A DNA stretch of 64,000 bases from an uncultured virus (IMG/VR IMGVR_UViG_3300011754_000016) (taxonomy: Duplodnaviria > Heunggongvirae > Uroviricota > Caudoviricetes): positions 1-64,000 of IMG/VR virus record IMGVR_UViG_3300011754_000016; one strand, given 5' to 3'. The position numbers and the translations under genes were made by a program. Shown one piece after another: positions 1-34,054 of the stretch (positions are counted from its first letter, which is position 1; each line of letters starts with the position of its first letter). The notes beneath the pieces were generated by a model. That model made no database searches, had not been told where the DNA came from, and saw only the letters and a program-made list of their open reading frames with translations.

Positions 1-2121
1 TTAGCTGGCTGCATCAAATAGCTTTGGGTTTACCTCAATAATCTTTTTGCGCCCATCGACTGATTGCTTAATGTGTCCTTTGCTTTCCAAGTTATCAAGC
101 TCACACTGTAGCAACTTGTTATTTTTCCGCATAGGCTTAGGTGCGCCGTTGAAAACATCAGTACGGTTCAAAATGGCGGGCTTTTTGTCTTTTGCCTTAC
201 TGACAAGCCAGCTACTTAGCATCTCACTGTCGTTCTGCTCACCTGTGGGCGTGGCATCAAGGTAGCGCAAGCGCTCACTGGTGGAATACTCAACCAACAA
301 AAAGGCGCGGGTTATATCATCTTTATTGATGACTTTACGCCCATCGAAAAAGGCTATCAGCGCGGCTATTCGGCTTGCATTTTCTGCCATTCGTGACGCA
401 TAGGCTTTTAGGTATTCCAAAGCTTGCCCGCTGGCTTGGCGGTTCTCAATCGCTTGCATCTGCTCGTAAAAGGCTTGTTCGGTGGCATCGTCTGCCCAGC
501 GCATCTTAATGCGTTCAGGCTGCCCTTGCGCTGTTGTAGGCTCATTGGCTGGGGTTGGGTCAAGTAAGCTTTGACAGCGTGACCAATAGGCGATTAGGTC
601 AGGATTATCATTAGGGTCATCACGGCGGCGGCTGGCATCGTTCCAAACGCGCTGCCCTCGCAAATCAGGCGGGCAAGCAATCAAAGCCCTTGCTAAAAAG
701 CCTTGCCCATTCATTAAAGGGTCAGTTAAAGCGGGTTCTAAGACGACACGCTGACCTTGTAAAAGTAGCGTCATGCGAACGTCATAAGCATCAGTTTTTG
801 GGGTAGCGAACGCTGATTTTTGTGACCTTACCCGCGATACCTCGCCATCACTATAAAGCGTGGTCAGTGATGATAAGGCATTGCCAGCGGTATCACCTTT
901 CATCGTATGACCGTTGAAAAACTGCCCTGCTTCGTCTGTTGTCCATGATGCGCTATTAATTTGACCGCTGATAAACATATCTAAAATAGGCTCTATGGTG
1001 GCTTCTTTAAACATGGTTTTAGGGTTCAAGGGCATGGGGTTTGCTTCTTTAAAGTCTGCAAGCTCCTTACCTTTAAGCCCTGCCTTATCGCTTTCCCAAA
1101 CGTCTATATCATCTAAGTATTGTTTGTATTTTTGGCGCTCATGCTGCTCTATCTTAAAGTGGGTCAGGCTCATGGCTTGAGTTTTGCCGCTACCGCTTTC
1201 CCCCTCCGTGATTAAGATAAGGCTTGCTGGCATGAAGCCATGACCAAAGGGCGCATCAATAAAGCGCTGCCCCATGTGCGCTAGTGCCCCTAAAACGCAT
1301 TGCCCCGCCATTGCTTGCGGTACTTGAGCATAATAAGCCACCCATTCAATGACACGCCGTAGCAGCCCATTAAAGGCGTGAATAGGGTAATCAGTGGGTT
1401 TGCTTGGGTCATTGGCTAAAGGTTCGGGGTCTGCCCACCCTGTCGCTTGCAGCTCTACTATGTCAGCCTCATTTTGAATGTCATCAAAGGTATTGCCACC
1501 ATCAAGCATGGTCACAATATCAGCTACGGTTATCCAAGCTTGAGCGTTCACGCCTGCCAATAATTTTTTGGTTCTATGATCATCAAGGGTCATTGGCACA
1601 ATAACGCGGCGATCATTGCCCCAATGATCAATAGCATCTTTAAACTGTTGGCGGTTGCGCTTTATGGGGCTGACAATGATAGTCTGCTTTAAGTGTACCG
1701 TGTGGCTGTAATATTCAAGCGCATAATCTAGGTCATTAAAGGCGATAACTTCGCTATTTGGGTCGTTCTCACCAATGATGATTGCGGCGTGGTCTGCATA
1801 GGTAATGACGGTAGGCAGTTGATTGCTGTTTGGCTGATAGAATACCGCGCCTATCGTTTCATCATGCTTATCAGTCAAGGCAAGCGCAATGCTGCCCGCT
1901 GTCTGTTCTATCTTGCCAGCATTCGCGCCATCGGTTATAGTTAGGTTTGCTGTGATTGCTAGCAGTCGTTCAGGCTCAAGCAAGCCATCAGCTTTTAGTA
2001 ACAAAGCATCATTTGCCAGTTCTTGCCGTGTGGCTGGCTTGAAAGTATGAAGCAAGTCCGAAAAGCCCGCGCCGCCATCGCGGGCTTTTTTCTTGCCTTG
2101 ATTTTGTGGTGTGGTGGTCAT
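1..2121 (-). CDS. DUF3987/YfjI-family replication protein (primase/helicase-associated P-loop NTPase)
   Basis: 706 aa; Walker A GESGSGKT, Walker B-like WTTDEAG, GFLARAL motif, C-terminal winged-helix-like segment. Confidence 0.8.
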   Translation of the reverse strand: MTTTPQNQGKKKARDGGAGFSDLLHTFKPATRQELANDALLLKADGLLEPERLLAITANLTITDGANAGKIEQTAGSIALALTDKHDETIGAVFYQPNSNQLPTVITYADHAAIIIGENDPNSEVIAFNDLDYALEYYSHTVHLKQTIIVSPIKRNRQQFKDAIDHWGNDRRVIVPMTLDDHRTKKLLAGVNAQAWITVADIVTMLDGGNTFDDIQNEADIVELQATGWADPEPLANDPSKPTDYPIHAFNGLLRRVIEWVAYYAQVPQAMAGQCVLGALAHMGQRFIDAPFGHGFMPASLILITEGESGSGKTQAMSLTHFKIEQHERQKYKQYLDDIDVWESDKAGLKGKELADFKEANPMPLNPKTMFKEATIEPILDMFISGQINSASWTTDEAGQFFNGHTMKGDTAGNALSSLTTLYSDGEVSRVRSQKSAFATPKTDAYDVRMTLLLQGQRVVLEPALTDPLMNGQGFLARALIACPPDLRGQRVWNDASRRRDDPNDNPDLIAYWSRCQSLLDPTPANEPTTAQGQPERIKMRWADDATEQAFYEQMQAIENRQASGQALEYLKAYASRMAENASRIAALIAFFDGRKVINKDDITRAFLLVEYSTSERLRYLDATPTGEQNDSEMLSSWLVSKAKDKKPAILNRTDVFNGAPKPMRKNNKLLQCELDNLESKGHIKQSVDGRKKIIEVNPKLFDAAS

Positions 2122-3593: not shown

Positions 3594-3872
3594 CTAAGCC
3601 TCGCTTGCCGTGTGGCTCTCAAGCCATGCTAAAACGTCAGCGTTACGCCATGCGCTCATGGTAGGGCTCAACTTCACTGGGGCAGGAAAGCGCCCATCTT
3701 TTGACCATTTCCAAAGCGTGGTGCTGCCAAAGGGCAGAAAGGGCAAAAGCTGGCTTGCGCGGCTCATGCCTTGCGGTGGCAAGTAAGGCATATCGCCATG
3801 ATTTTCGGCGGGGCTGTCAGCGCTTGGCTGATTGAAAGCGATTACTTCGCTATTGGTGGTAGGCTGTGCCAT
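3594..3872 (-). CDS. alpA: AlpA-family regulator / excisionase
   Basis: STTLWKWSKDGRFPAPVKLS..SAWRNADVLAWL signature. Confidence 0.9.
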   Translation of the reverse strand: MAQPTTNSEVIAFNQPSADSPAENHGDMPYLPPQGMSRASQLLPFLPFGSTTLWKWSKDGRFPAPVKLSPTMSAWRNADVLAWLESHTASEA

Positions 3873-4009: not shown

Positions 4010-4573
4010 TTAATTAGGTTTAGGGCGCTTCTTTTTGGCATCGGCTAGCATTAGATTTGCATCTCTAAAGCGATTTTCTAAAGTGGTTTTGCGCTGTCCT
4101 TGAATGTCCTTATCTAATATATCTCCTATTATGGTGGCTTGGCTTTGAAATGGTGCCTTACCGTCTATACCCTTTGGCGTGGTCATTAACTCCAATAGCA
4201 AGCCTATAGTGGTTTGATAACTCTTTTCGGTATGGTCATTAAGCTGGCTGGTAGCATTTTCCTGTGATGGCGCTGGCTTGTTGTTATTACAGTCTATCAA
4301 TACTGCTTCATCTAAGCTGTCGTTAAACCTCTCGAGCGTATAGCCTTTATCCGCTAAGTATCTTTTAACTTCATCTACTAAAATTAATCCCTCATCATTA
4401 AAAACTTTAAGCTTGCCTGCCTTTATACTCGTTTCAATCATTTTGATAATCTGTTTATATCCTCTATTACCAATATTGAGTGAAATTGGGTCTAAGTCGC
4501 AAACTAAACAAGCTATTTCATTTGGAGTAAATAAATCTAAATCTACTAAATAGCTTTGATGCTCTCCTAACAT
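4010..4573 (-). CDS. Satellite hypothetical protein, possible regulator of alpA
   Basis: Likely ATG at 4573 (MLGEHQ...), directly after a structured leader; helical C-terminus. Confidence 0.65.
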   Translation of the reverse strand: MLGEHQSYLVDLDLFTPNEIACLVCDLDPISLNIGNRGYKQIIKMIETSIKAGKLKVFNDEGLILVDEVKRYLADKGYTLERFNDSLDEAVLIDCNNNKPAPSQENATSQLNDHTEKSYQTTIGLLLELMTTPKGIDGKAPFQSQATIIGDILDKDIQGQRKTTLENRFRDANLMLADAKKKRPKPN

Positions 4574-4672
4574 AATCCACACCCCTACACCCTTTAATAA
4601 AAATAGGTGCAAGGCGCTGACAGCATTAGGGTGTGGTTTGCTGTCGTTCGGGTAATTACTCCTAGCCTTGCA
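4571..4672 (-). ncRNA. Structured pseudoknotted 5'-leader RNA, copy 1
   Basis: P1 TGCAAGGC/GCCTTGCA; GGCTAGG..CCCGAAC; P3 GACAGCA/TGCTGTC with a CCACACCC loop complementary to two GGGTGT tracts beside the ATG. Confidence 0.6.
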
Positions 4673-4678
4673 AAGTTG

Positions 4679-5026
4679 TTACGCCATGCCCTCACTTTTG
4701 ACAGCATTGGCAAGCGTGTCGGTTATCCACTGATTAAGGCTCATGCCGTGGCTGGTAGCAATCGTGCTGACTTGCTCATGCAACTCGCTTGGCATACGGG
4801 TTACAAATTTACCTGAAAAGGATTTGTAAGGGGTAATACCTTGCTCTTGGCAAACGTCCAAAAAGGCTTGTAGTGACTGCCTGCCCTCATGTTCTAAAGC
4901 GGTGATGCTGTCACCATAAAAATCAGCGCCACCGTTTAAGCCAACAAATTCACCACGGAATAGGTCTATTTCAGGGTCGTATTGAATGATGGCTTTATGG
5001 TCATTAATCATCATAATATTTTGCAT
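4679..5026 (-). CDS. hicB: HicB antitoxin
   Basis: YDPEIDLFRGEFVGLNGGADFYG plus C-terminal RHH FSGKFVTRMPSELH...SLNQW. Confidence 0.92.
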   Translation of the reverse strand: MQNIMMINDHKAIIQYDPEIDLFRGEFVGLNGGADFYGDSITALEHEGRQSLQAFLDVCQEQGITPYKSFSGKFVTRMPSELHEQVSTIATSHGMSLNQWITDTLANAVKSEGMA

Positions 5027-5028
5027 GA

Positions 5029-5328
5029 TTACTCCTTATTATCCGTTGTGGGGGCAGTAGCGCGGGCGTCATCAATAGGGCTATACCCTAAGCTATCTAA
5101 CCATTTGCGAACACTGGCAACCGCGCCCTTATCCGTTGTCGGCTGGGGGTGGGGTCGGTGATAAACTTGAACTTCACCATCTAACACTACCGCCACTCTT
5201 GAGCCTGCCCTTTCGCTAACTTCTGCCCCTAATGCGATAAATAGGGCTTCAATATCTGCCCATTTTATATTTGCTGATATAGGCTTAGTAAATATAATAT
5301 TGAGTGTTTTTAAGTGCTTACGCTGCAT
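5029..5328 (-). CDS. hicA: HicA toxin (mRNase)
   Basis: IKWADIEALF..GSRVAV..HRPHP motif; lies upstream of hicB. Confidence 0.92.
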   Translation of the reverse strand: MQRKHLKTLNIIFTKPISANIKWADIEALFIALGAEVSERAGSRVAVVLDGEVQVYHRPHPQPTTDKGAVASVRKWLDSLGYSPIDDARATAPTTDNKE

Positions 5329-5654: not shown

Positions 5655-6893
5655 TTAGCCTTGCTTTTGTGCCTTTGGTTTAAAGTCTGCATGAATGACG
5701 TTATCCAGCTTGCCCGCATGGGCGCTATCAATAAAGTCTGCCCATTGGTTCATCATGTCAATGCGATAAGGCAAGTGCTGTGCCCCATTGTAAGCGGCGC
5801 TAATCTTATTCTCTCTATCGTGGGCTAATTGCAGCTCAATAGCTTCATGCTTAAAGCCTTGTTCATGCAGCGTGGTGCTGGCAAGCCCTCTAAAGCCGTG
5901 CCCTGTCATGCGCCCCTTATAGCCCATGCGCCATAGGGCAGTAATAAAAGCGTTTTGGCTGTATGGCTTGCGGGTCGATGGATTAAAGAAAACATACTTA
6001 TCCGAAAAGCCAAAGGCGCGTATCTGCTCAAGAATGGCAATCACTTGCGGCGCTAGCGGTACGATATGCACCCGCCCCGCTTTCATCTTATCGGCGGGTA
6101 TTGTCCAAAGGCGGCGCTTGTAGTCAATCTCGCACCATTCCATGAAGCGTAGCTCACTGGTTCGCACAAACGTGTAGCACATCACCCAAAAGCCCAGCCT
6201 TACCAAAATATCACCCTCATAGGCGTTAATGCTTTGTAGCAGCTTTGGCAGTTCTTGCACGTTGATGCGCTTATGGTTCACGGTCTTATGAGGCTTGATA
6301 GCGGCGGCAAGGTCAATGGCTGGGTTATTTATTGCCAAGCCGTTTCTAACGGCGTGTTTGAATATCTGCCCTATCTCTCTAATGGTACGCTTTGCCATTT
6401 CATTAGCGCCGCGCTGCTCTACTGCTTTGCCAATGGCAAGCACATCAGGGGCGGTTATATCGTCTATATTAAGATGACCAATAGCGGGCTTTACATCGCG
6501 CAAATAGGCGGAATAGTTGCGGCTAAAGGTACTTTCAGCAAGGTAGGTCTTGCGCTCGCTATACCACTGTTGAGCAATGGCATCAAAAGACTTTGTGCCA
6601 TCACTATCAGCCTTGCGCCGCTTCTTATCCTGCTTTGGGTCAATGCCTTGCGCTAGTAAATCTTTTATTTGTTGGTTGCGCTGGCGGGCATCAGCAAGCC
6701 CCATTGCGGGGTATTTGCCAATGGTCAGGCTTTGGCGCTTACCATTAAAGCTATAATCACTTACCCATGCCTTACTGCCACTATGACGCACCCAAAGGCG
6801 CAAGTTATCGCCATCGCTATATTTATCAGGATTATTAGGGGTGCAAGCGCTTGATGGCTTTAGGCGTTTGATTTGGCTATCAGTTAAGGGCAT
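5655..6893 (-). CDS. int: P4-like tyrosine integrase
   Basis: 412 aa; arm-binding N-terminus (DGDNLRLWV..LTIGKYP); catalytic R (VRTSELR), HGFR, QLAH, AYN. Confidence 0.95.
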   Translation of the reverse strand: MPLTDSQIKRLKPSSACTPNNPDKYSDGDNLRLWVRHSGSKAWVSDYSFNGKRQSLTIGKYPAMGLADARQRNQQIKDLLAQGIDPKQDKKRRKADSDGTKSFDAIAQQWYSERKTYLAESTFSRNYSAYLRDVKPAIGHLNIDDITAPDVLAIGKAVEQRGANEMAKRTIREIGQIFKHAVRNGLAINNPAIDLAAAIKPHKTVNHKRINVQELPKLLQSINAYEGDILVRLGFWVMCYTFVRTSELRFMEWCEIDYKRRLWTIPADKMKAGRVHIVPLAPQVIAILEQIRAFGFSDKYVFFNPSTRKPYSQNAFITALWRMGYKGRMTGHGFRGLASTTLHEQGFKHEAIELQLAHDRENKISAAYNGAQHLPYRIDMMNQWADFIDSAHAGKLDNVIHADFKPKAQKQG

Positions 6894-6940
6894 GACGGTA
6901 TATTTCCATGACGGTATAAAATATACCGTAAAATATACCG
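6891..6940. repeat. Integrase arm-type binding repeats
   Basis: CATGACGGTATA twice, then AAATATACCG twice in inverted orientation, at the integrase start. Confidence 0.6.
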
Positions 6941-7006
6941 CAATTTTGCAAGGTTTGCCACGTATTAGGGCGGCTTATGGTGTAGGCTGATTGCCTTACA
7001 AGCCGC

Positions 7007-7072: not shown

Positions 7073-7192
7073 CATGGACTGTCTTTATAATTAACTGATA
7101 TTTATAATATTAAATTCATTTTATATATTTGGTGTACTATAAGAGTACGTGAACAACAAGAAAATTTATTTAAAACTAAAGAAAACTAAGAC

Positions 7193-7246
7193 GTGTAATT
7201 TAGACATTGCGGTGTAATTTTAGACCAACTGCGGTGTAATTTAGAC
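7193..7246. repeat. Three direct repeats GTGTAATTT(T)AGAC
   Basis: Copies at 7193, 7212 and 7234 near the prophage end. Confidence 0.7.
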
Positions 7247-7364
7247 ATTTGGTTTCTTGATTTAGAAGCAAGCAAAAATGAAAAATCCATATCAAACCCT
7301 TGCTATTATTGACTCTTGTTGCTTGACCGTTGCTTGATTGCTAAGTGTACTTTTAGACATTAAT

Positions 7365-7398
7365 AGCTAAACTTAGCTACAGATGGCTAAGTTTAGCT
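7365..7398. repeat. Perfect 13-8-13 inverted repeat (lox-like geometry or RNA hairpin)
   Basis: AGCTAAACTTAGC-TACAGATG-GCTAAGTTTAGCT. Confidence 0.75.
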
Positions 7399-7406
7399 GT
7401 ATTTAG

Positions 7407-9857
7407 CTACAGAACAACCTCATGGTTAGCGCCGAAAATAGAATCCATCATTGCTTGGTCCTTACTTGCATTTTCAAATATTCGCTCTTGCTTGATTGTT
7501 TCAAACAGCCGATCAAAGGCTGCATTAATCAGCTTTCGTTCCTCGCCTTCCGGATAGGCTTTGTGGTTGCTATAAAGCGCATTGTCCGCGCCAAAGCTTA
7601 AATAGTCGTTACGGCGCTCTTTATTTTTTAGACTATCTTCTAAAAACGCTTGAAAGGACCGTGCCGCCATTTCATGCAGACTGGACCAATAAGGTTTTGA
7701 CTTGCCAGCGTCCAGCTCCTTTGAGTTGGCATAAAATTGCGACACACGCTCACCGGTATTGAGGTAAATTGTTTGGTCAATAAACGCCACGCTATGATAA
7801 GCGGCGGCTATTTTTCGCCATGTGTTATGGTTTTTAGTGCGCCGGCTGGCAGGTCGATTGCCTTGTAATCGATCATCAACCGCTAAGACTGCCGATTGCG
7901 CGTCTTTCGCATCAAAAATAATCTGACTCATCGTGTTGCGAGTACCATCTTTGATATTAAGGATGGCAAGGTCCACATCCTTTTGAGTAATGGCAAATTT
8001 TTCAGGAGATCGCGTGACACCAAGCGTCATGACATCCTGCAACTCTTTGAACCGCGTTCCGACAATATTGTCACCGACCAAATCAGGCGTTTGGCTCAAG
8101 AAGTTCCCTGCGCCTGTTGCGCCGTCAACACCCATCACCTCACCTAAAATATTATCAATAGCATGGAACCATTCATGCCCCAGTGAGCCGCCACCTTTCA
8201 TTTTGGTGATGTTAATAACGCGTCGATCCGACTCATAGTGTGCAAGCGCACCTGAGCGACCACGCGCGCCAAAAGCTAACGCCAATCTGCCACCAAACGC
8301 CAATGATTGCGGATCAATCCCTACCACATCGGACAGATCAAGCATACTTGCTGCCGCGTTTTCTACATGAAATTTTGCGCTATCTTTATCGTTTAATACC
8401 CAACTGCCTGATTGAATGTCACGAAAGCCAAAGGTGTTTTTAAGCTCGCTGGTTGAGTTGATTGTGACCGGCTCGCCGCCGATTCGGGTGATATTATCAG
8501 CAACAATTAGCTCAAACGTTTTTTTCTTTTTGCCTTTGGATGCCGGCTTGCCTGCATCATCTTTTGGGATCACAAGCCCCCAATCATTGTACTTACCGCG
8601 CAATCCTGCGTTGGCGTGCTTCACAAAAGCGGCTGAGGTCAGCTCGATAATCGCCCAAAAGCGCTCACCTAAAGACACCCACGCAAGGCTTGTCATATCA
8701 TTTTTAAGTGCGTCAATGCTATTGGTTACGCGCATTTTATCTAGCATTTTGAATTGAGCGAGATATGGCTCGTAATCTTTACGGCTGACAATGGCGCTGT
8801 CGGTTCGTGTGATTTGATAATTCTGATGGTCCGCTGATTTATCCTGATCGTCAAGCCAATCTATCATCGCGCGAGTTTTGAAATAACCACTACCCACCCA
8901 ACCGGTATAAACTTCAAAATCACCTTTATTGTAATACACCAAATCAGCGTCTTTGTCGCTTATATTCATAGACTTGATGGCTTGCCGGCGCGCGCGGTCA
9001 TAATCTGCTTCCAGTTTTTTGGACTTGGCAAGCAGATCACTCGCCATATCATCTTTTATTTTTAACTGCCGTAAATACTCATCACTCTCGCCTGCGCTAA
9101 GTTGAAAACCGCCCATTTCACTGGCAATCAGCTTTAATTCAGCGACCAACGACTTAATGTCTTTAATGTTGGTAATTCGCGCCTTAAGAGAATTGATGCC
9201 GGTCACGTAGGCTTTTCGCGCCATTTTTTGCTGATCTGCAATGCTGTTTTGTTCAAGCTGATCAAACACGGCTGCTAAGTCGCTAGGTCGCAAACCTTTA
9301 ATTATTTTGCGACCGGTATTGCTGTTTTTGACAAAATAGGACAAATCCCAATGCGGTGATGGGGCAATAGACGCCAGGACTTTTTGGATCATGAAAGCAG
9401 TTGCGGCATCACCGTCGCTATCCTTCATTGCTTGGTAGTCGATTTTACCCATGATGTTTGATTTTTTAATCACATCTTCAGCCAGTAGCGGATCAGCTTC
9501 GATCTCGTCCCATTCAATATCAGTGGATTTTACCGTTTGACCTTCTTGCGCCAACTCTTTGATCCGGTTTCGCGCCTGCTCCTTGTGGCTGCCTGAAATG
9601 TAACCTGTATCGGCGTAACGGTAGTTTTCGTCATTTACATTGTCGCTAAAGCTGTCCTCTGAGTCATCATCAATCAGGTCATCGTCAGGTGGGCTGGCGG
9701 GTTTAGTGTTGCCCAAATAACCAAGTTTGGTCAAAATATCGGTCAAATATTTGGCAGCGTTGGCGCGGGCAAGAAATCCGCTTGCAGATTTTAGGTCGGT
9801 TAAGGCGTTTTGTAGCAGCTTGATGTTTTCAAGGCGCTGCATTGTGTTTGATGGCAT
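7407..9857 (-). CDS. LPD1-domain polyvalent protein with a zincin metallopeptidase motif
   Basis: 816 aa; LAFGARG, GGGSLGHEWFHAIDN (HExxH), YWSSLHEMAARSF, AYPEGEER. Confidence 0.8.
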   Translation of the reverse strand: MPSNTMQRLENIKLLQNALTDLKSASGFLARANAAKYLTDILTKLGYLGNTKPASPPDDDLIDDDSEDSFSDNVNDENYRYADTGYISGSHKEQARNRIKELAQEGQTVKSTDIEWDEIEADPLLAEDVIKKSNIMGKIDYQAMKDSDGDAATAFMIQKVLASIAPSPHWDLSYFVKNSNTGRKIIKGLRPSDLAAVFDQLEQNSIADQQKMARKAYVTGINSLKARITNIKDIKSLVAELKLIASEMGGFQLSAGESDEYLRQLKIKDDMASDLLAKSKKLEADYDRARRQAIKSMNISDKDADLVYYNKGDFEVYTGWVGSGYFKTRAMIDWLDDQDKSADHQNYQITRTDSAIVSRKDYEPYLAQFKMLDKMRVTNSIDALKNDMTSLAWVSLGERFWAIIELTSAAFVKHANAGLRGKYNDWGLVIPKDDAGKPASKGKKKKTFELIVADNITRIGGEPVTINSTSELKNTFGFRDIQSGSWVLNDKDSAKFHVENAAASMLDLSDVVGIDPQSLAFGGRLALAFGARGRSGALAHYESDRRVINITKMKGGGSLGHEWFHAIDNILGEVMGVDGATGAGNFLSQTPDLVGDNIVGTRFKELQDVMTLGVTRSPEKFAITQKDVDLAILNIKDGTRNTMSQIIFDAKDAQSAVLAVDDRLQGNRPASRRTKNHNTWRKIAAAYHSVAFIDQTIYLNTGERVSQFYANSKELDAGKSKPYWSSLHEMAARSFQAFLEDSLKNKERRNDYLSFGADNALYSNHKAYPEGEERKLINAAFDRLFETIKQERIFENASKDQAMMDSIFGANHEVVL

Positions 9858-29333: not shown

Positions 29334-29819
29334 ATGACTGATAATATTGGACGAATTAGAAATCAAGATGATTGGAAACGCACTCAAGTAAGAATACCTC
29401 AAGAGCAATATGAGGCAATTGCTGAGCACGCCAGTGAGAATGATTTGTCACTAAATTCTGCAATGATTGAACTTATGGATAAGGGTTTAACAGTAGATGG
29501 TAGATACGCAACACCATCTAATATTAGAATCCACCGCTTAAAAAATGGCATCAAGCGCGTTGTTTTTGGCAAATTGGTGAATAGTTTTGATATTGATTAC
29601 ACCAATCCAAACTTAACAGAGCTTAAAGGTGATATAGAGTATTGTCTTGAGATTTTGGCGAATACTGGCTCTTTAAAAGATCGTTTTATGTTTTTTAATA
29701 AAAAAGTCGGTGTATTTCAAGGTGGGAGTCATCTTGATGTTATCGATGAGGGTGTCGGCAGTCTTAATTGGCTAATTGTAGAAGATCACCACACGCAGGA
29801 ATATATTGATCAGTTATAG
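29334..29819 (+). CDS. Arc-family (RHH) DNA-binding protein with an unknown C-terminal domain
   Basis: RTQVRIPQEQYEAIAEHA..SLNSAMIELM. Confidence 0.75.
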   Translation: MTDNIGRIRNQDDWKRTQVRIPQEQYEAIAEHASENDLSLNSAMIELMDKGLTVDGRYATPSNIRIHRLKNGIKRVVFGKLVNSFDIDYTNPNLTELKGDIEYCLEILANTGSLKDRFMFFNKKVGVFQGGSHLDVIDEGVGSLNWLIVEDHHTQEYIDQL

Positions 29820-29908: not shown

Positions 29909-30388
29909 TTAAGCTACTTTTGGGTCACCATTAACCCAAGCTTCCTGAAATTTGCATTCAGCTGGCGGCTTCCTTTCTGCAATAAATGTTCTATCCTTCA
30001 CATCCGCCCAATTCATGTTATTTTGCGCCCAATCAACAATTTCAAAATCGCTATTCAAAAACAGAGGTATGGTGTCATTTGTTAAACTATCGGAAAAACT
30101 ATTGTTAAACTTACTACCTGCATAATGATTTGCTCTATGCCGCGCAATCACCTCAACAGGTAGGACATAAGTACGACCATCAGGCATGTCAAGGTAAAGC
30201 ATTTTTTCAAACAAAGGCGTATCGTAAACTTCTTCGCAATCCCAAATATCAGAAGTATTTACGTAAGGCTTAATATCACGTTCCCAAATATCGCAAGCAG
30301 CATCTTCGCTTTCGGCTTCGACAACCTTTGTTGCAAAAGCATGGTCGCCATCATGATTCTCTAACCATTTAATTCTATATTTCTTCAT
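29909..30388 (-). CDS. Acidic hypothetical protein (moron)
   Basis: 159 aa; own promoter and structured leader. Confidence 0.7.
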   Translation of the reverse strand: MKKYRIKWLENHDGDHAFATKVVEAESEDAACDIWERDIKPYVNTSDIWDCEEVYDTPLFEKMLYLDMPDGRTYVLPVEVIARHRANHYAGSKFNNSFSDSLTNDTIPLFLNSDFEIVDWAQNNMNWADVKDRTFIAERKPPAECKFQEAWVNGDPKVA

Positions 30389-30484
30389 ATCCTCAACACC
30401 TATTCAGATAGACACCCTAAGATGTTGGCAATCGGGGGTGTAATCCGACTTTCGGGAGCGACCCTAGCCAACCCTCAAATTATA
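30386..30484 (-). ncRNA. Structured pseudoknotted 5'-leader RNA, copy 2, with an extended -10 promoter
   Basis: TGCTATAAT; P1 GTTGGC/GCCAAC; GGCTAGGGTCGCTCCCGAAAG; P3 AGTCGG/CCGATT with an ACACCC loop; downstream GGGTGT and GGTGT next to the RBS. Confidence 0.6.
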
Positions 30485-30530
30485 GCACAATCAAGCGGTT
30501 ACAAGGTCGATAAACGTAGTGGTATGGCAA

Positions 30531-33496: not shown

Positions 33497-34054
33497 TTAT
33501 ACTGATGCGCTGGCAAGATCAGCTTGCAGCTCTATTTGCTCAAGTTGCTGCTCAAGCTCGCTGATTTGCGTCTGCTTTTGCTCAATCGTGACATCAAGCT
33601 CTTTTTCTTGAGCCAGTAGCGCATTTCGCTGTTGTGATTTATTTTGTGGGGCGCGACCTGTGGTTTTATTGTTGCTTGGCGGCTTGACGCGCTTCATGGC
33701 TAGCTTTTTGGTAAATGCCGCCTGACCTGTCTTGATGGTATTGGCAACCATATCAACCGAAGCGTTAAACACCGGCTTATAGCTGTTGTCAAAATCGCCT
33801 GATAGCGGTTGTGATTTGCCGTTAATGTCAATGCGAAAAATATCGAAATGGTCATCGGTCACGCGCAAATAGATCATCACGACCTGACCATTTTCAAGCA
33901 TGATTCGCACCGGTCTTGCTGATGCGCCTGATACGCGCTTGATCTTTTCAACCTCGACAATCGGAATGGCTTGTTTGGCAGATCGCTTGAGCCTTGCTAC
34001 AAAATCTTTGACCAGTGGGGTTTTTTCGGTAATGTCGGATAACTTTACGCTCAT
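33497..34054 (-). CDS. Hdf / DarA-N-terminal-like head protein
   Basis: KRVSG..LENGQVVMIYLR..DIFRIDINGK plus a C-terminal coiled coil. Confidence 0.65.
   Translation of the reverse strand: MSVKLSDITEKTPLVKDFVARLKRSAKQAIPIVEVEKIKRVSGASARPVRIMLENGQVVMIYLRVTDDHFDIFRIDINGKSQPLSGDFDNSYKPVFNASVDMVANTIKTGQAAFTKKLAMKRVKPPSNNKTTGRAPQNKSQQRNALLAQEKELDVTIEQKQTQISELEQQLEQIELQADLASASV

What the first reader, a model, noticed from the sequence alone, without database searches (positions are those of the whole stretch)
4571..4672. The same pseudoknotted leader RNA architecture in the satellite and the prophage (copy 1)
Seen: this leader and the one at 30386-30472 share P1-stem, GGCTAGG-N6/8-CCCGAA(A/C)G, a P3 stem with an ACACCC loop, P1 closure, and then two G(G)GTGT tracts, the second touching the ribosome-binding region. 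The stems differ almost completely in sequence but both pair (TGCAAGGC/GCCTTGCA vs GTTGGC/GCCAAC; GACAGCA/TGCTGTC vs AGTCGG/CCGATT), which is natural covariation. The downstream genes are unrelated. Inferred: a cis-regulatory RNA (riboswitch-like or protein-responsive) in which the loop pairs with either tract to hide or free the RBS. I cannot assign it to a named family from memory.
Basis: partly seen in the sequence, partly recalled or inferred. Interest (0 to 1): 0.85.

Follow-up and report, generated by a model that had tools for sequence, protein, structure and literature searches.

The report
Self-targeting antisense leader RNA, int-alpA type
Both leaders belong to a widespread small-RNA family of phages and phage satellites (related to the Rfam motif int-alpA) whose variable loop matches two sites just downstream, one on the ribosome-binding site, so it most likely shuts off the next gene much as the c4 RNA of phage P1 does.

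Summary
Both leaders have P1, GGCUAGG-N6/8-CCCGAA(A/C)G, a P3 hairpin with an ACACCC loop, P1 closure, and two G(G)GUGU tracts, the second at the Shine-Dalgarno (SD) site.

It is not chance. The motif occurs twice in the window and 0 times in 100 shuffles. In viral contigs, 52 of 106 bare-motif instances carry P1+P3, against 1.2 expected.

It is not unnamed. Copy 2 is a sub-threshold match to Rfam int-alpA (RF02996; 21.9 bits, cut-off 35.8), and 5 of 20 scaffold siblings pass the cut-off. Copy 1 is a divergent Psychrobacter satellite subtype in the int...alpA position.

The P3 loop is hypervariable across the family. It is complementary to two downstream tracts in 30 of 51 members, against 7.5% with swapped loops. 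The 3' tract ends 2-12 nt before an ATG in 22 of those 30.

Best reading: a self-targeting antisense translational repressor that works like P1 c4 / P4 CI. It is not a member of Rfam C4. A riboswitch reading has no support. Expression, processing and action in trans are untested.

The satellite and prophage copies share loop specificity, so cross-talk is possible.

The parts
4608..4672 (-). Copy 1 RNA core. Three-way junction: P1 4672-4665/4615-4608; CUAGG-P2-CCCGAAC 4664-4646; P3 4645-4639/4625-4619; antisense loop AACCACACCCUAA 4638-4626.
   Evidence: Sequence. MFE fold z = -4.0. R1 model 20.3 bits, E 8.6e-4. 13 Psychrobacter/viral homologues aligned.
4594..4607 (-). U-rich spacer after P1 (CCUAUUUUUAUUAA). 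Possible terminator or Hfq-type tail that would release a free sRNA. This is inferred.
   Evidence: Conserved as CCTATTTT(G/T)A in the copy-1 subfamily. Rfam int-alpA consensus has a U-run at the same place. The terminator scan did not call it.
4587..4593 (-). Copy 1 target tract 1 (AGGGUGU), complementary to the loop.
   Evidence: 7-nt exact complement. Duplex -11.9 kcal/mol.
4577..4584 (-). Copy 1 target tract 2 (GGGUGUGG), in the Shine-Dalgarno position. It ends 3 nt before AUG 4573-4571.
   Evidence: 8-nt exact complement. Duplex -18.1 kcal/mol. Covaries with the loop in Psychrobacter homologues.
4010..4573 (-). First ORF downstream of copy 1 (187 aa), function unknown. It occupies the variable cargo slot before alpA.
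   Evidence: No Pfam, PHROG or PADLOC hit. Atlas shows only hypothetical-protein clusters. A different ORF sits at this slot in L170, L182, L190 and L192.
3594..3872 (-). AlpA-family regulator of the satellite.
   Evidence: PF05930, E 1.4e-5.
4679..5328 (-). hicA (5328-5029) and hicB (5026-4679), a toxin-antitoxin pair inserted between int and the RNA. A promoter-like site lies at 5380-5352.
   Evidence: Pfam HicA_toxin and HicB. PHROGs. Promoter scan 10/12.
5655..6893 (-). P4-type tyrosine integrase of the satellite.
   Evidence: Arm-DNA-bind_3 + Phage_int_M + Phage_integrase. The same integrase type lies directly upstream of the RNA in L170, L182 and L190.
30424..30472 (-). Copy 2 RNA core. 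P1 30472-30467/30429-30424; P2 GGG/CCC; P3 30450-30445/30435-30430; antisense loop AUUACACCC 30444-30436.
   Evidence: R1 57.6 bits, E 1.6e-14. Rfam int-alpA 21.9 bits, E 0.017, full length. The block is 88% conserved in Psychrobacter phage vB_PmaS_Y8A and MT836429 while the flanks are not.
30479..30487 (-). Extended -10 promoter element (TGCTATAAT), 6 nt upstream of P1 of copy 2.
   Evidence: Sequence. The same element is present in L001 and L002. A -10-like hexamer lies 4-15 nt upstream of P1 in 25 of 75 members, against 1 of 75 in a control window.
30412..30417 (-). Copy 2 target tract 1 (GGGUGU).
   Evidence: -10.0 kcal/mol with its own loop; -13.7 with the copy 1 loop.
30396..30400 (-). 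Copy 2 target tract 2 (GGUGU, within UAGGUGU). This is the likely SD, 7 nt before AUG 30388-30386.
   Evidence: In L001 and L002 the alternative GAGG is absent, so AGGUGU is the only SD-like element.
29909..30388 (-). ORF downstream of copy 2 (159 aa), function unknown. A moron-like gene set among tail and baseplate genes.
   Evidence: C-terminal part hits phrog_17928, function unknown. No Pfam hit. Atlas gives no usable family.

Best explanation
Both elements are self-targeting antisense leader RNAs of the int-alpA type.

A conserved three-way-junction scaffold (P1, CUAGG-P2-CCCGAAAG, P3) displays a hypervariable P3 loop. That loop base-pairs with two short tracts 5-45 nt downstream on the same transcript. 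The 3' tract overlaps the Shine-Dalgarno sequence of the first ORF, so pairing blocks ribosome binding and keeps the downstream gene off.

Shown here:
- the structure
- the loop/tract complementarity and its covariation
- the position of the 3' tract at the SD

Inferred by analogy with P1 c4 and P4 CI:
- The RNA is released as a stable small RNA, either by termination at the U-rich tail after P1 or by processing.
- It then acts in trans as well as in cis.
- Because one loop can occupy only one tract at a time, the proximal tract probably captures the cis loop, and the SD tract is closed by further copies of the RNA. This would give dose-dependent, immunity-like repression.
- In the satellite this would gate the cargo gene-alpA-primase operon. 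In the prophage it would gate a moron of unknown function.
For: Architecture is not chance:
- The motif occurs twice in the window and 0 times in 100 shuffles.
- 52 of 106 unique bare-motif instances in viral contigs have P1+P3, against 1.2 +/- 1.1 (maximum 6) with shuffled flanks.

Stem covariation on a MAFFT alignment of 40 members:
- 92.5% of cells are paired, against 67.5% shuffled and 36-52% with slid partners.
- Five P1 pairs and four P3 pairs show changes on both sides.
- The pair closing P3 is G-U in 31 of 40 members, which marks RNA and this strand.

Loop and targets:
- The mean longest exact complement is 6.14 nt, against 3.42 +/- 0.28 with swapped loops (1000 permutations).
- A second tract of at least 5 nt is present in 30 of 51 members, against 7.5% (maximum 20.8%).
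- The 3' tract ends 2-12 nt before an ATG in 22 of those 30.

Compensatory classes within the copy-1 lineage in Psychrobacter:
- CACACCC / GGGUGU
- CAUGCC / GGCAUG
- CACACACCUUU / AAAGGUGUG
- GCAUCC / GGGUGCG
- AUGCACCC / GGGUGCAU

Other support:
- 70 of 73 members have a same-strand ORF starting 10-67 nt after P1.
- The topology is the same as Rfam C4, which recognises P1 c4 and P4 CI. The annotated P1 target b2 lies at the icd SD.
- P4, P1, P7 and N15 antisense immunity and RNase P processing are described in passages of PMC3632133 and PMC5499578.
- Downstream genes are of kinds that are kept tightly off: HNH endonucleases in 10 of 51 and antirepressors in 4 of 51. RBS sequestration of T4 homing-endonuclease genes is described in passages of PMC2988022.
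Against: - There are no expression, end-mapping or binding data.
- Whether the RNA acts in trans at all is untested.
- Copy 2's core fold is not more stable than shuffles (z = -0.6), and the full leaders fold no better than shuffles (z = -1.24 and +0.16).
- 21 of 51 members lack a second exact tract of at least 5 nt.
- Copy 2's SD tract pairs weakly (5 nt, -6.7 kcal/mol).
- The conserved junction sequence is unexplained by a pure antisense model.
- Members were collected with a motif taken from the two copies, and my P1/P3 filter inflates the percentage paired.
- Neither Rfam C4 nor my model links this family to c4/CI by sequence.
Confidence: 0.65

Rival explanations
1. A purely cis-acting conformational switch, riboswitch-like or responsive to a protein or temperature. 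The conserved junction would bind a ligand or factor that decides whether the loop pairs with the decoy tract 1 (RBS free) or with tract 2 (RBS hidden).
For: About 16 junction nucleotides (GGCUAGG...CCCGAAAG...UGCC) are invariant or nearly so across distant phyla while everything else varies. This is what a binding pocket would look like. Two alternative partners for one loop is a classic switch layout. In copy 1 the full-leader MFE already uses the loop-tract 2 pairing in place of P1/P3.
Against: The downstream genes have no common function, unlike the genes of known riboswitch classes. No riboswitch family matches. The P2 loop and all helices vary freely. The conserved junction could equally serve folding or recognition by a nuclease or chaperone.
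Confidence: 0.13
2. A trans-acting sRNA gene whose real targets lie elsewhere, in the host or a helper phage. The adjacent tracts would be incidental or serve only as a cis 'sponge'. This is how Rfam types int-alpA (Gene; sRNA).
For: Rfam type. A promoter directly at P1 in 25 of 75 members, and a U-rich tail in 13 of 75.
Against: The tracts sit at a fixed place, the second at the SD of the very next ORF, and they covary with the loop. 70 of 73 members have that ORF.
Confidence: 0.08
3. A tRNA-like processing or stability module, for example an RNase P site, that merely separates the upstream and downstream parts of a polycistronic transcript.
For: A 7-9 bp P1 followed by NCC in 26 of 75 members. 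c4 and CI are RNase P substrates (passage of PMC5499578). Copy 1 starts about 7 nt after the hicB stop codon and has no promoter of its own.
Against: NCC is no more frequent in members without a promoter (17 of 50) than in those with one (9 of 25). This model does not explain loop/tract covariation. ARAGORN finds no tRNA-like gene in the window.
Confidence: 0.07
4. A DNA-level site, such as an attachment, homing or recombination site, linked to integrases and HNH endonucleases.
For: Neighbours include integrases and homing endonucleases.
Against: G-U pairs are tolerated on this strand only: 31 of 40 at the P3 base. Orientation relative to the ORF is fixed. Stems covary while their sequence is free.
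Confidence: 0.02

Closest known systems
Rfam RF02996 int-alpA RNA motif (Weinberg et al. 2017, PMC5737381). I read main-text passages only; the supplement that describes the motif could not be opened.
   Same: Same scaffold and order: P1, CUAG, P2 hairpin, CGAAA(A), P3 hairpin with a 7-12-nt loop, P1 closure, a U-rich stretch, then AGGG. Copy 2 aligns over the whole model. 5 of 20 siblings sharing the GGCUAGG...CCCGAAMG scaffold pass the gathering score, and 6 more score 27-35 bits. Copy 1 lies between a P4-type integrase and alpA.
   Different: Copy 2 scores 21.9 bits against a cut-off of 35.8, and it lies in a phage tail module rather than between int and alpA. Copy 1 and its subfamily get no hit at all; their P3 is 7 bp with a 13-nt loop. 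Rfam gives no function. The loop-to-two-tracts complementarity is my result. I could not check whether the 2017 supplement already notes it.
Rfam RF01695 C4 antisense RNA (P1/P7 c4; P4 CI RNA), clan CL00128 with c4-a1b1
   Same: Works alike. A three-way junction lies in the leader of the operon it controls. A hairpin loop is complementary to sites on the same transcript, one at the SD of the first ORF (P1 b2 before icd). It is carried by a P1-like phage and by a satellite, as here.
   Different: There is no sequence or model relationship. C4 does not hit the window, and my model hits neither P1 c4 nor P4 CI. c4 has a 17-bp P1 and uses two antisense segments, one of them in the junction. P4 has one target upstream and one downstream (recalled from the P4 literature). 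Here one loop serves two tandem downstream tracts.
RBS-sequestering hairpins of T4-type homing endonuclease genes (I-TevI, segB, mobE; PMC2988022, passages read)
   Same: An RNA structure hides the SD of a free-standing endonuclease gene inserted among phage genes. 10 of 51 downstream genes in this family are HNH endonucleases.
   Different: Those are simple local hairpins without a conserved scaffold, a separate antisense loop or duplicated targets.

Membership tests
Rfam RF02996 int-alpA | Covariance-model score at or above the gathering score (35.8 bits) | tested here: not met
   Copy 2: 21.9 bits, E 0.017, full-length alignment. Copy 1: no hit at E up to 10. No hit in the whole window at gathering threshold.
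Rfam RF02996 int-alpA | Three-stem junction with CUAG after P1 and CGAAA between P2 and P3 | tested here: met
   Both copies. Siblings with the identical junction score 38.5-50.6 bits for RF02996.
Rfam RF02996 int-alpA | Location between an integrase gene and an alpA gene (taken from the family's name) | tested here: inconclusive
   Copy 1: int 5655-6893, then hicAB, the RNA, orf187, and alpA 3594-3872, all on the minus strand. So it lies between int and alpA, but with cargo on both sides. In L190 the order is int-RNA-orf281-alpA. Copy 2 is not met: it lies between baseplate and tail-tube genes.
Rfam RF01695 C4 antisense RNA | Covariance-model score at or above 45 bits | tested here: not met
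   No hit at E up to 10 on either leader or on the whole record. Positive controls: P1 c4 68.8 bits and P4 CI 74.9 bits.
Rfam RF01695 C4 antisense RNA | Antisense segment complementary to a site at the SD of the first downstream ORF on the same transcript | tested here: met
   for both copies. P1 annotation for comparison.
Rfam RF01695 C4 antisense RNA | Processing from the leader by RNase P, and action in trans as an immunity factor | not testable with these tools
   No RNA sequencing run was listed for this sequence.
Riboswitch (any class) | Match to a known aptamer family, and a coherent set of regulated genes | tested here: not met
   No Rfam riboswitch hit. Downstream genes are heterogeneous.

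The most novel reading that the evidence does not exclude
The satellite and the co-resident P1-like prophage use the same loop specificity, so their RNAs can regulate each other.

- The satellite loop matches the prophage tracts by 9 + 5 nt (-13.7 / -7.4 kcal/mol). This is better than the prophage's own loop (6 + 5 nt; -10.0 / -6.7 kcal/mol).
- The prophage loop matches the satellite tracts by 7 + 7 nt (-11.0 / -14.8 kcal/mol).

This would be RNA-level cross-talk between a satellite and its presumed helper. Either the helper's RNA holds the satellite's cargo-alpA-primase operon silent until the helper is induced, or the satellite's RNA silences a helper gene.

More broadly, the family would be a natural programmable repressor: one scaffold with a 6-10-nt exchangeable seed, used across several phyla.
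Probability: 0.15. Interest if true: 0.8.

Novelty: new member of a known kind. Interest (0 to 1): 0.55.

Why it matters
In the Rfam copy used here, int-alpA is typed only as an sRNA gene, with no function stated. The loop/target covariation found here gives it a concrete, testable mechanism: c4-like self-targeting antisense control of translation.

The family also reaches well beyond int-alpA intergenic regions. It sits in front of homing endonuclease, antirepressor, integrase and unknown cargo genes, in phages and satellites of several phyla.

For satellites of Psychrobacter it marks the likely immunity or induction checkpoint upstream of alpA. The shared specificity with a co-resident prophage suggests a simple experiment on satellite-helper communication.

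Tried and rejected
- Rfam at gathering threshold on the whole window gave nothing.
- The genome search with RF02996 and RF01695 on the provirus record gave nothing at E up to 10.
- My model R1 on P4 and on the P1 c4 region gave noise only. Homology with c4/CI is therefore not shown.
- The supplement of PMC5737381, which describes int-alpA, could not be opened. A full-text search for 'int-alpA' found 2 papers. In the one I opened (PMC13612085) the term is only a gene order. The other (PMC12370729) I saw as a search listing only. I therefore cannot say whether the loop/SD complementarity is already in print.
- No RNA holder was listed among sequencing runs, and read laying was not used.
- PADLOC, Pfam and the protein Atlas gave no function for the two downstream proteins.
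- The NCC tail as an RNase P hint showed no difference between members with and without a promoter.
- Heteroimmunity of co-resident satellites was inconclusive. Of 8 Psychrobacter genomes with two elements, the loops clearly differ in about 5 and share a CACAC core in 3. This was judged by eye, the sample is small, and there are no statistics.
- tRNA scan of the window found none.
- MAFFT misaligned copy 1 with the copy-2 type (A1), so that alignment was not used.
- Relatives could not be drawn for a virus record.

Full report
**Observation**

Both elements lie on the minus strand.

Copy 1 (4672 down to 4571) reads: P1 UGCAAGGC, UAGG, an 8-nt P2 region, CCCGAAC, P3 GACAGCA, loop AACCACACCCUAA, UGCUGUC, AGC, then P1' GCCUUGCA. 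After that come a U-rich spacer, AGGGUGU, A, GGGGUGUGG, AUU and AUG.

Copy 2 (30472 down to 30386) has the same order with other stems: GUUGGC/GCCAAC and AGUCGG/CCGAUU. Its loop is AUUACACCC. Its tracts are GGGUGU and GGUGU, the latter 7 nt before the AUG.

The shared 15-letter motif GGCTAGG-N4-10-CCCGAAMG occurs exactly twice in 64 kb, with none in 100 shuffles. The whole 76.7-kb provirus record holds only these two copies. The downstream proteins (187 and 159 aa) are unrelated.

**Is it a named family?**

Rfam at gathering thresholds finds nothing in the window. With permissive thresholds on the leaders alone:
- Copy 2 aligns end to end with RF02996, the int-alpA RNA motif, at 21.9 bits (cut-off 35.8, E 0.017).
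- Copy 1 gets no such hit.

The int-alpA consensus has the same parts in the same order: P1, CUAG, P2, CGAAAA, P3 with a 9-nt loop, P1', a U-run, and AGGG.

**Relatives**

A blastn search of 1.4 kb around copy 2 against phage genomes matched only the RNA block. It was 88% identical in Psychrobacter phage vB_PmaS_Y8A and in MT836429, with unrelated flanks and a TATAAT box just upstream in each.

Of 106 unique instances with full flanks, 52 have both a P1 closing helix and a P3 hairpin. Shuffled flanks give 1.2 +/- 1.1, with a maximum of 6 in 300 trials.

I gave 20 of these loci to Rfam:
- 5 pass the int-alpA gathering score (38.5-50.6 bits).
- 6 score 27-35 bits.
- 9 get nothing at E up to 0.1. 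Both homologues of copy 1 are among these.

So the collected family overlaps Rfam int-alpA and extends beyond its model.

**Structure**

I aligned 40 cores with MAFFT, leaving out the window copies and their close homologues. Results:
- 92.5% of cells are paired, against 67.5% after shuffling partners and 36-52% with slid partners.
- The covariation score is 0.644, against 0.148.
- Five P1 pairs and four P3 pairs show changes on both sides.

Caveat: I had selected these sequences for at least 3 P1 pairs and at least 4 P3 pairs, so the percentage paired is inflated. The unbiased control is.

The base pair of P3 is G-U in 31 of 40 members. This fits RNA on this strand and not the complementary strand.

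A covariance model from this alignment (R1) scores copy 2 at 57.6 bits (E 1.6e-14) and copy 1 at 20.3 bits (E 8.6e-4). These are the two best hits in the window, and the next is a plain hairpin at 13.4 bits.

**The loop and its targets**

The P3 loop is the most variable part of the family, and it matches what follows. Among 51 members with distinct loops:
- The longest exact Watson-Crick complement between loop and the next 50 nt averages 6.14 nt. With loops swapped among members it averages 3.42 +/- 0.28 (1000 permutations, maximum 4.41).
- A second, non-overlapping tract of at least 5 nt is present in 30 of 51. Swapped loops give 7.5% (maximum 20.8%).
- In 22 of those 30 the 3' tract ends 2-12 nt before an ATG, which is the SD position.
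- 21 of 51 lack a second exact tract by this strict measure.

Of 73 unique members from a second scan, 70 have a same-strand ORF of at least 40 codons starting 10-67 nt after P1.

**The copy-1 lineage**

Thirteen homologues from viral contigs and Psychrobacter genomes align with copy 1. R1 finds a match in 53 of 141 species genomes of that genus. Almost all are of the copy-1 length. One locus, L378, is of the copy-2 type.

The lineage falls into specificity classes in which loop and both tracts change together:
- CACACCC with GGGUGU
- CAUGCC with GGCAUG (L364, L371-L375)
- CACACACCUUU with AAAGGUGUG
- GCAUCC with GGGUGCG
- AUGCACCC with GGGUGCAU

On the 14-sequence alignment, the loop-tract 2 helix is 87% paired. 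Three of its pairs change on both sides, even though MAFFT misaligns the tracts of the divergent classes.

**Context**

Copy 1 sits in an integrative element with the order: P4-type integrase, hicA, hicB, RNA, orf187, alpA, a wHTH protein, two unknown ORFs, and a DUF3987 primase-helicase running off the window.
- In three homologues the integrase gene lies directly upstream of the RNA.
- In a fourth, a RelA_SpoT-domain gene is intercalated.
- In L190 the order is int, RNA, orf281, alpA.
- The ORF after the RNA differs in each element (187 to 487 aa) and has no Pfam or PADLOC hit at E 0.001 or better.
- Copy 1 has no promoter of its own. The nearest promoter-like site precedes hicA.

Copy 2 has an extended -10 box 6 nt upstream of P1 and lies between baseplate and tail-tube genes of a myovirus. 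That phage has P1-like accessory genes (DarA_N/Hdf-like, LPD1).

Family-wide:
- A -10-like hexamer ends 4-15 nt before P1 in 25 of 75 members, against 1 of 75 in a control window. A U-rich tail follows P1 in 13 of 75.
- I gave 51 of the 70 downstream ORFs to Pfam. Results: 10 HNH-type endonucleases (plus 2 with only AP2 or NUMOD3), 4 KilA-N/AntA antirepressors, 2 integrases, 2 HTH_36, 2 PAPS reductase-like, 1 TnpB, 5 other, and 23 with no hit. Some of these are close relatives of each other, so the counts are not independent.
- I gave 36 of the 40 upstream ORFs to PHROGs. The other 4 are the copy-1 type and are covered. Results: 13 structural or packaging genes, 6 DNA-metabolism genes, 1 integrase, 4 of unknown function, and 12 with no hit.

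In phages, then, the RNA and its ORF form a cassette set between conserved genes, like a moron or a free-standing homing endonuclease gene.

The genome scan adds members in Alpha-, Gamma- and Deltaproteobacteria, Planctomycetota, Acidobacteriota, Poribacteria and Thermodesulfobacteriota. There, 41 of 120 motif matches pass the P1 filter.

**How it most likely works**

The anatomy is that of an antisense RNA encoded in the leader of the gene it controls.

The well-studied examples are c4 of P1/P7 and CI of P4. Rfam C4 recognises both (68.8 and 74.9 bits). It draws them as a long P1 enclosing two hairpins, the second with a 12-nt loop. In the P1 record, target b2 lies at the SD of icd and a2 lies just after c4. 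Passages of PMC3632133 and PMC5499578 describe this antisense immunity in P4, P1, P7 and N15, and the processing of CI and c4 by RNase P.

By analogy, the P3 loop here pairs with the SD tract and blocks initiation. That step is strongly supported by covariation.

Further steps are inferred and untested:
- That a free small RNA is made, either by termination at the U-rich tail or by processing.
- That it acts in trans.
- That the proximal tract serves as the preferred cis partner, so the SD is closed only when further RNA copies accumulate.

Translation control of this kind is plausible for the genes concerned. T4-type homing endonuclease genes are known to be held off by structures that sequester the RBS (passages of PMC2988022).

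**Membership versus likeness**

The family works like c4/CI but is not a member of Rfam C4:
- C4 does not hit the window.
- R1 does not hit P1 c4 or P4 CI.
- Rfam lists no clan for int-alpA in these outputs. C4 and c4-a1b1 are both listed in clan CL00128.

The design also differs. Here one loop serves two tandem downstream tracts.

With respect to int-alpA, the scaffold and (for copy 1) the context fit. However, both copies fail the curated score. They are best called divergent members, or a sister subtype, of that family.

**Rival readings**

A ligand- or protein-responsive switch is not excluded. The junction nucleotides are strikingly conserved and are not explained by antisense function alone. 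But nothing positive supports it, and the regulated genes share no theme.

A DNA-level site is unlikely because of the strand-specific G-U pairs and the fixed orientation.

**Shared specificity of the two copies**

Exact complements and duplex energies:

| Loop | Tracts | Exact complement (tract 1 + tract 2) | Energy (kcal/mol) |
|---|---|---|---|
| Copy 1 | own | 7 + 8 nt | -11.9 / -18.1 |
| Copy 2 | own | 6 + 5 nt | -10.0 / -6.7 |
| Copy 1 | copy 2's | 9 + 5 nt | -13.7 / -7.4 |
| Copy 2 | copy 1's | 7 + 7 nt | -11.0 / -14.8 |

Among 2162 ordered pairs of unrelated members, only 1.0% reach at least 7 nt plus at least 5 nt.

Caveat: the CACACCC class is by far the commonest in Psychrobacter elements, so the coincidence is much less improbable within this genus.

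Cross-regulation between the satellite and the prophage is therefore possible and easily tested, but it is not shown.

**Limits**

- There are no expression data. No RNA run was listed.
- The description of int-alpA in the 2017 supplement could not be read.
- The host assignment to Psychrobacter rests on the nearest relatives of both RNAs.

Noticed in passing
window 4679-5328 (-): A hicA-hicB toxin-antitoxin pair is inserted between the satellite integrase and the RNA. In related elements this slot is empty (L170, L182, L190) or holds a RelA_SpoT-domain gene (L192 423-1475). It looks like a cargo insertion point upstream of the RNA.
   Followed up: partly
window 4010-4573 (-); L170 1595-2842; L182 2-1462; L190 1594-2436; L192 1585-2997: The ORF directly after the RNA differs in every related satellite (187-487 aa). 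None has a Pfam hit at E 0.001 or better (one weak DUF948 hit, E 0.0076, for L170) and none has a PADLOC hit. This variable slot before alpA could be a hotspot for accessory or defence genes.
   Followed up: partly
L139 (IMG/VR contig), RNA at about 1501-1545 (-): The RNA plus an HNH/NUMOD3 endonuclease gene follows an ORF that matches only the N-terminal part of tape-measure proteins. The cassette may interrupt or split a tape-measure gene.
   Followed up: no
window 6893-6945 and 7190-7260, 7360-7415: Short repeats lie next to the integrase end: ATGACGGTATA twice with inverted ATATACCG copies, then three copies of GTGTAATTTAGAC-like words and repeated TTAGCTACAG words. These may be integrase arm sites, attachment-region repeats or iterons at the satellite/prophage junction.
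   Followed up: no
window 7407-9857 (-), 33497-34054 (-): An 816-aa protein with an LPD1 polyvalent-protein domain, and a DarA_N / Hdf-like antirestriction protein. These are P1-like accessory functions in the prophage.
   Followed up: no
window 29334-29819 (+): A 161-aa ORF with an Arc/ParG-like N-terminus (phrog_795, Arc) lies convergent to the 159-aa ORF that copy 2 controls.
   Followed up: no
L142 (IMG/VR contig): One family member precedes a TnpB/IS605 OrfB-type gene (439 aa).
   Followed up: no
L406 (G051:C1:2142040-2142360): A copy-1-type RNA whose downstream tracts look degenerate: one tract, then unrelated sequence. This may be a decayed element.
   Followed up: no
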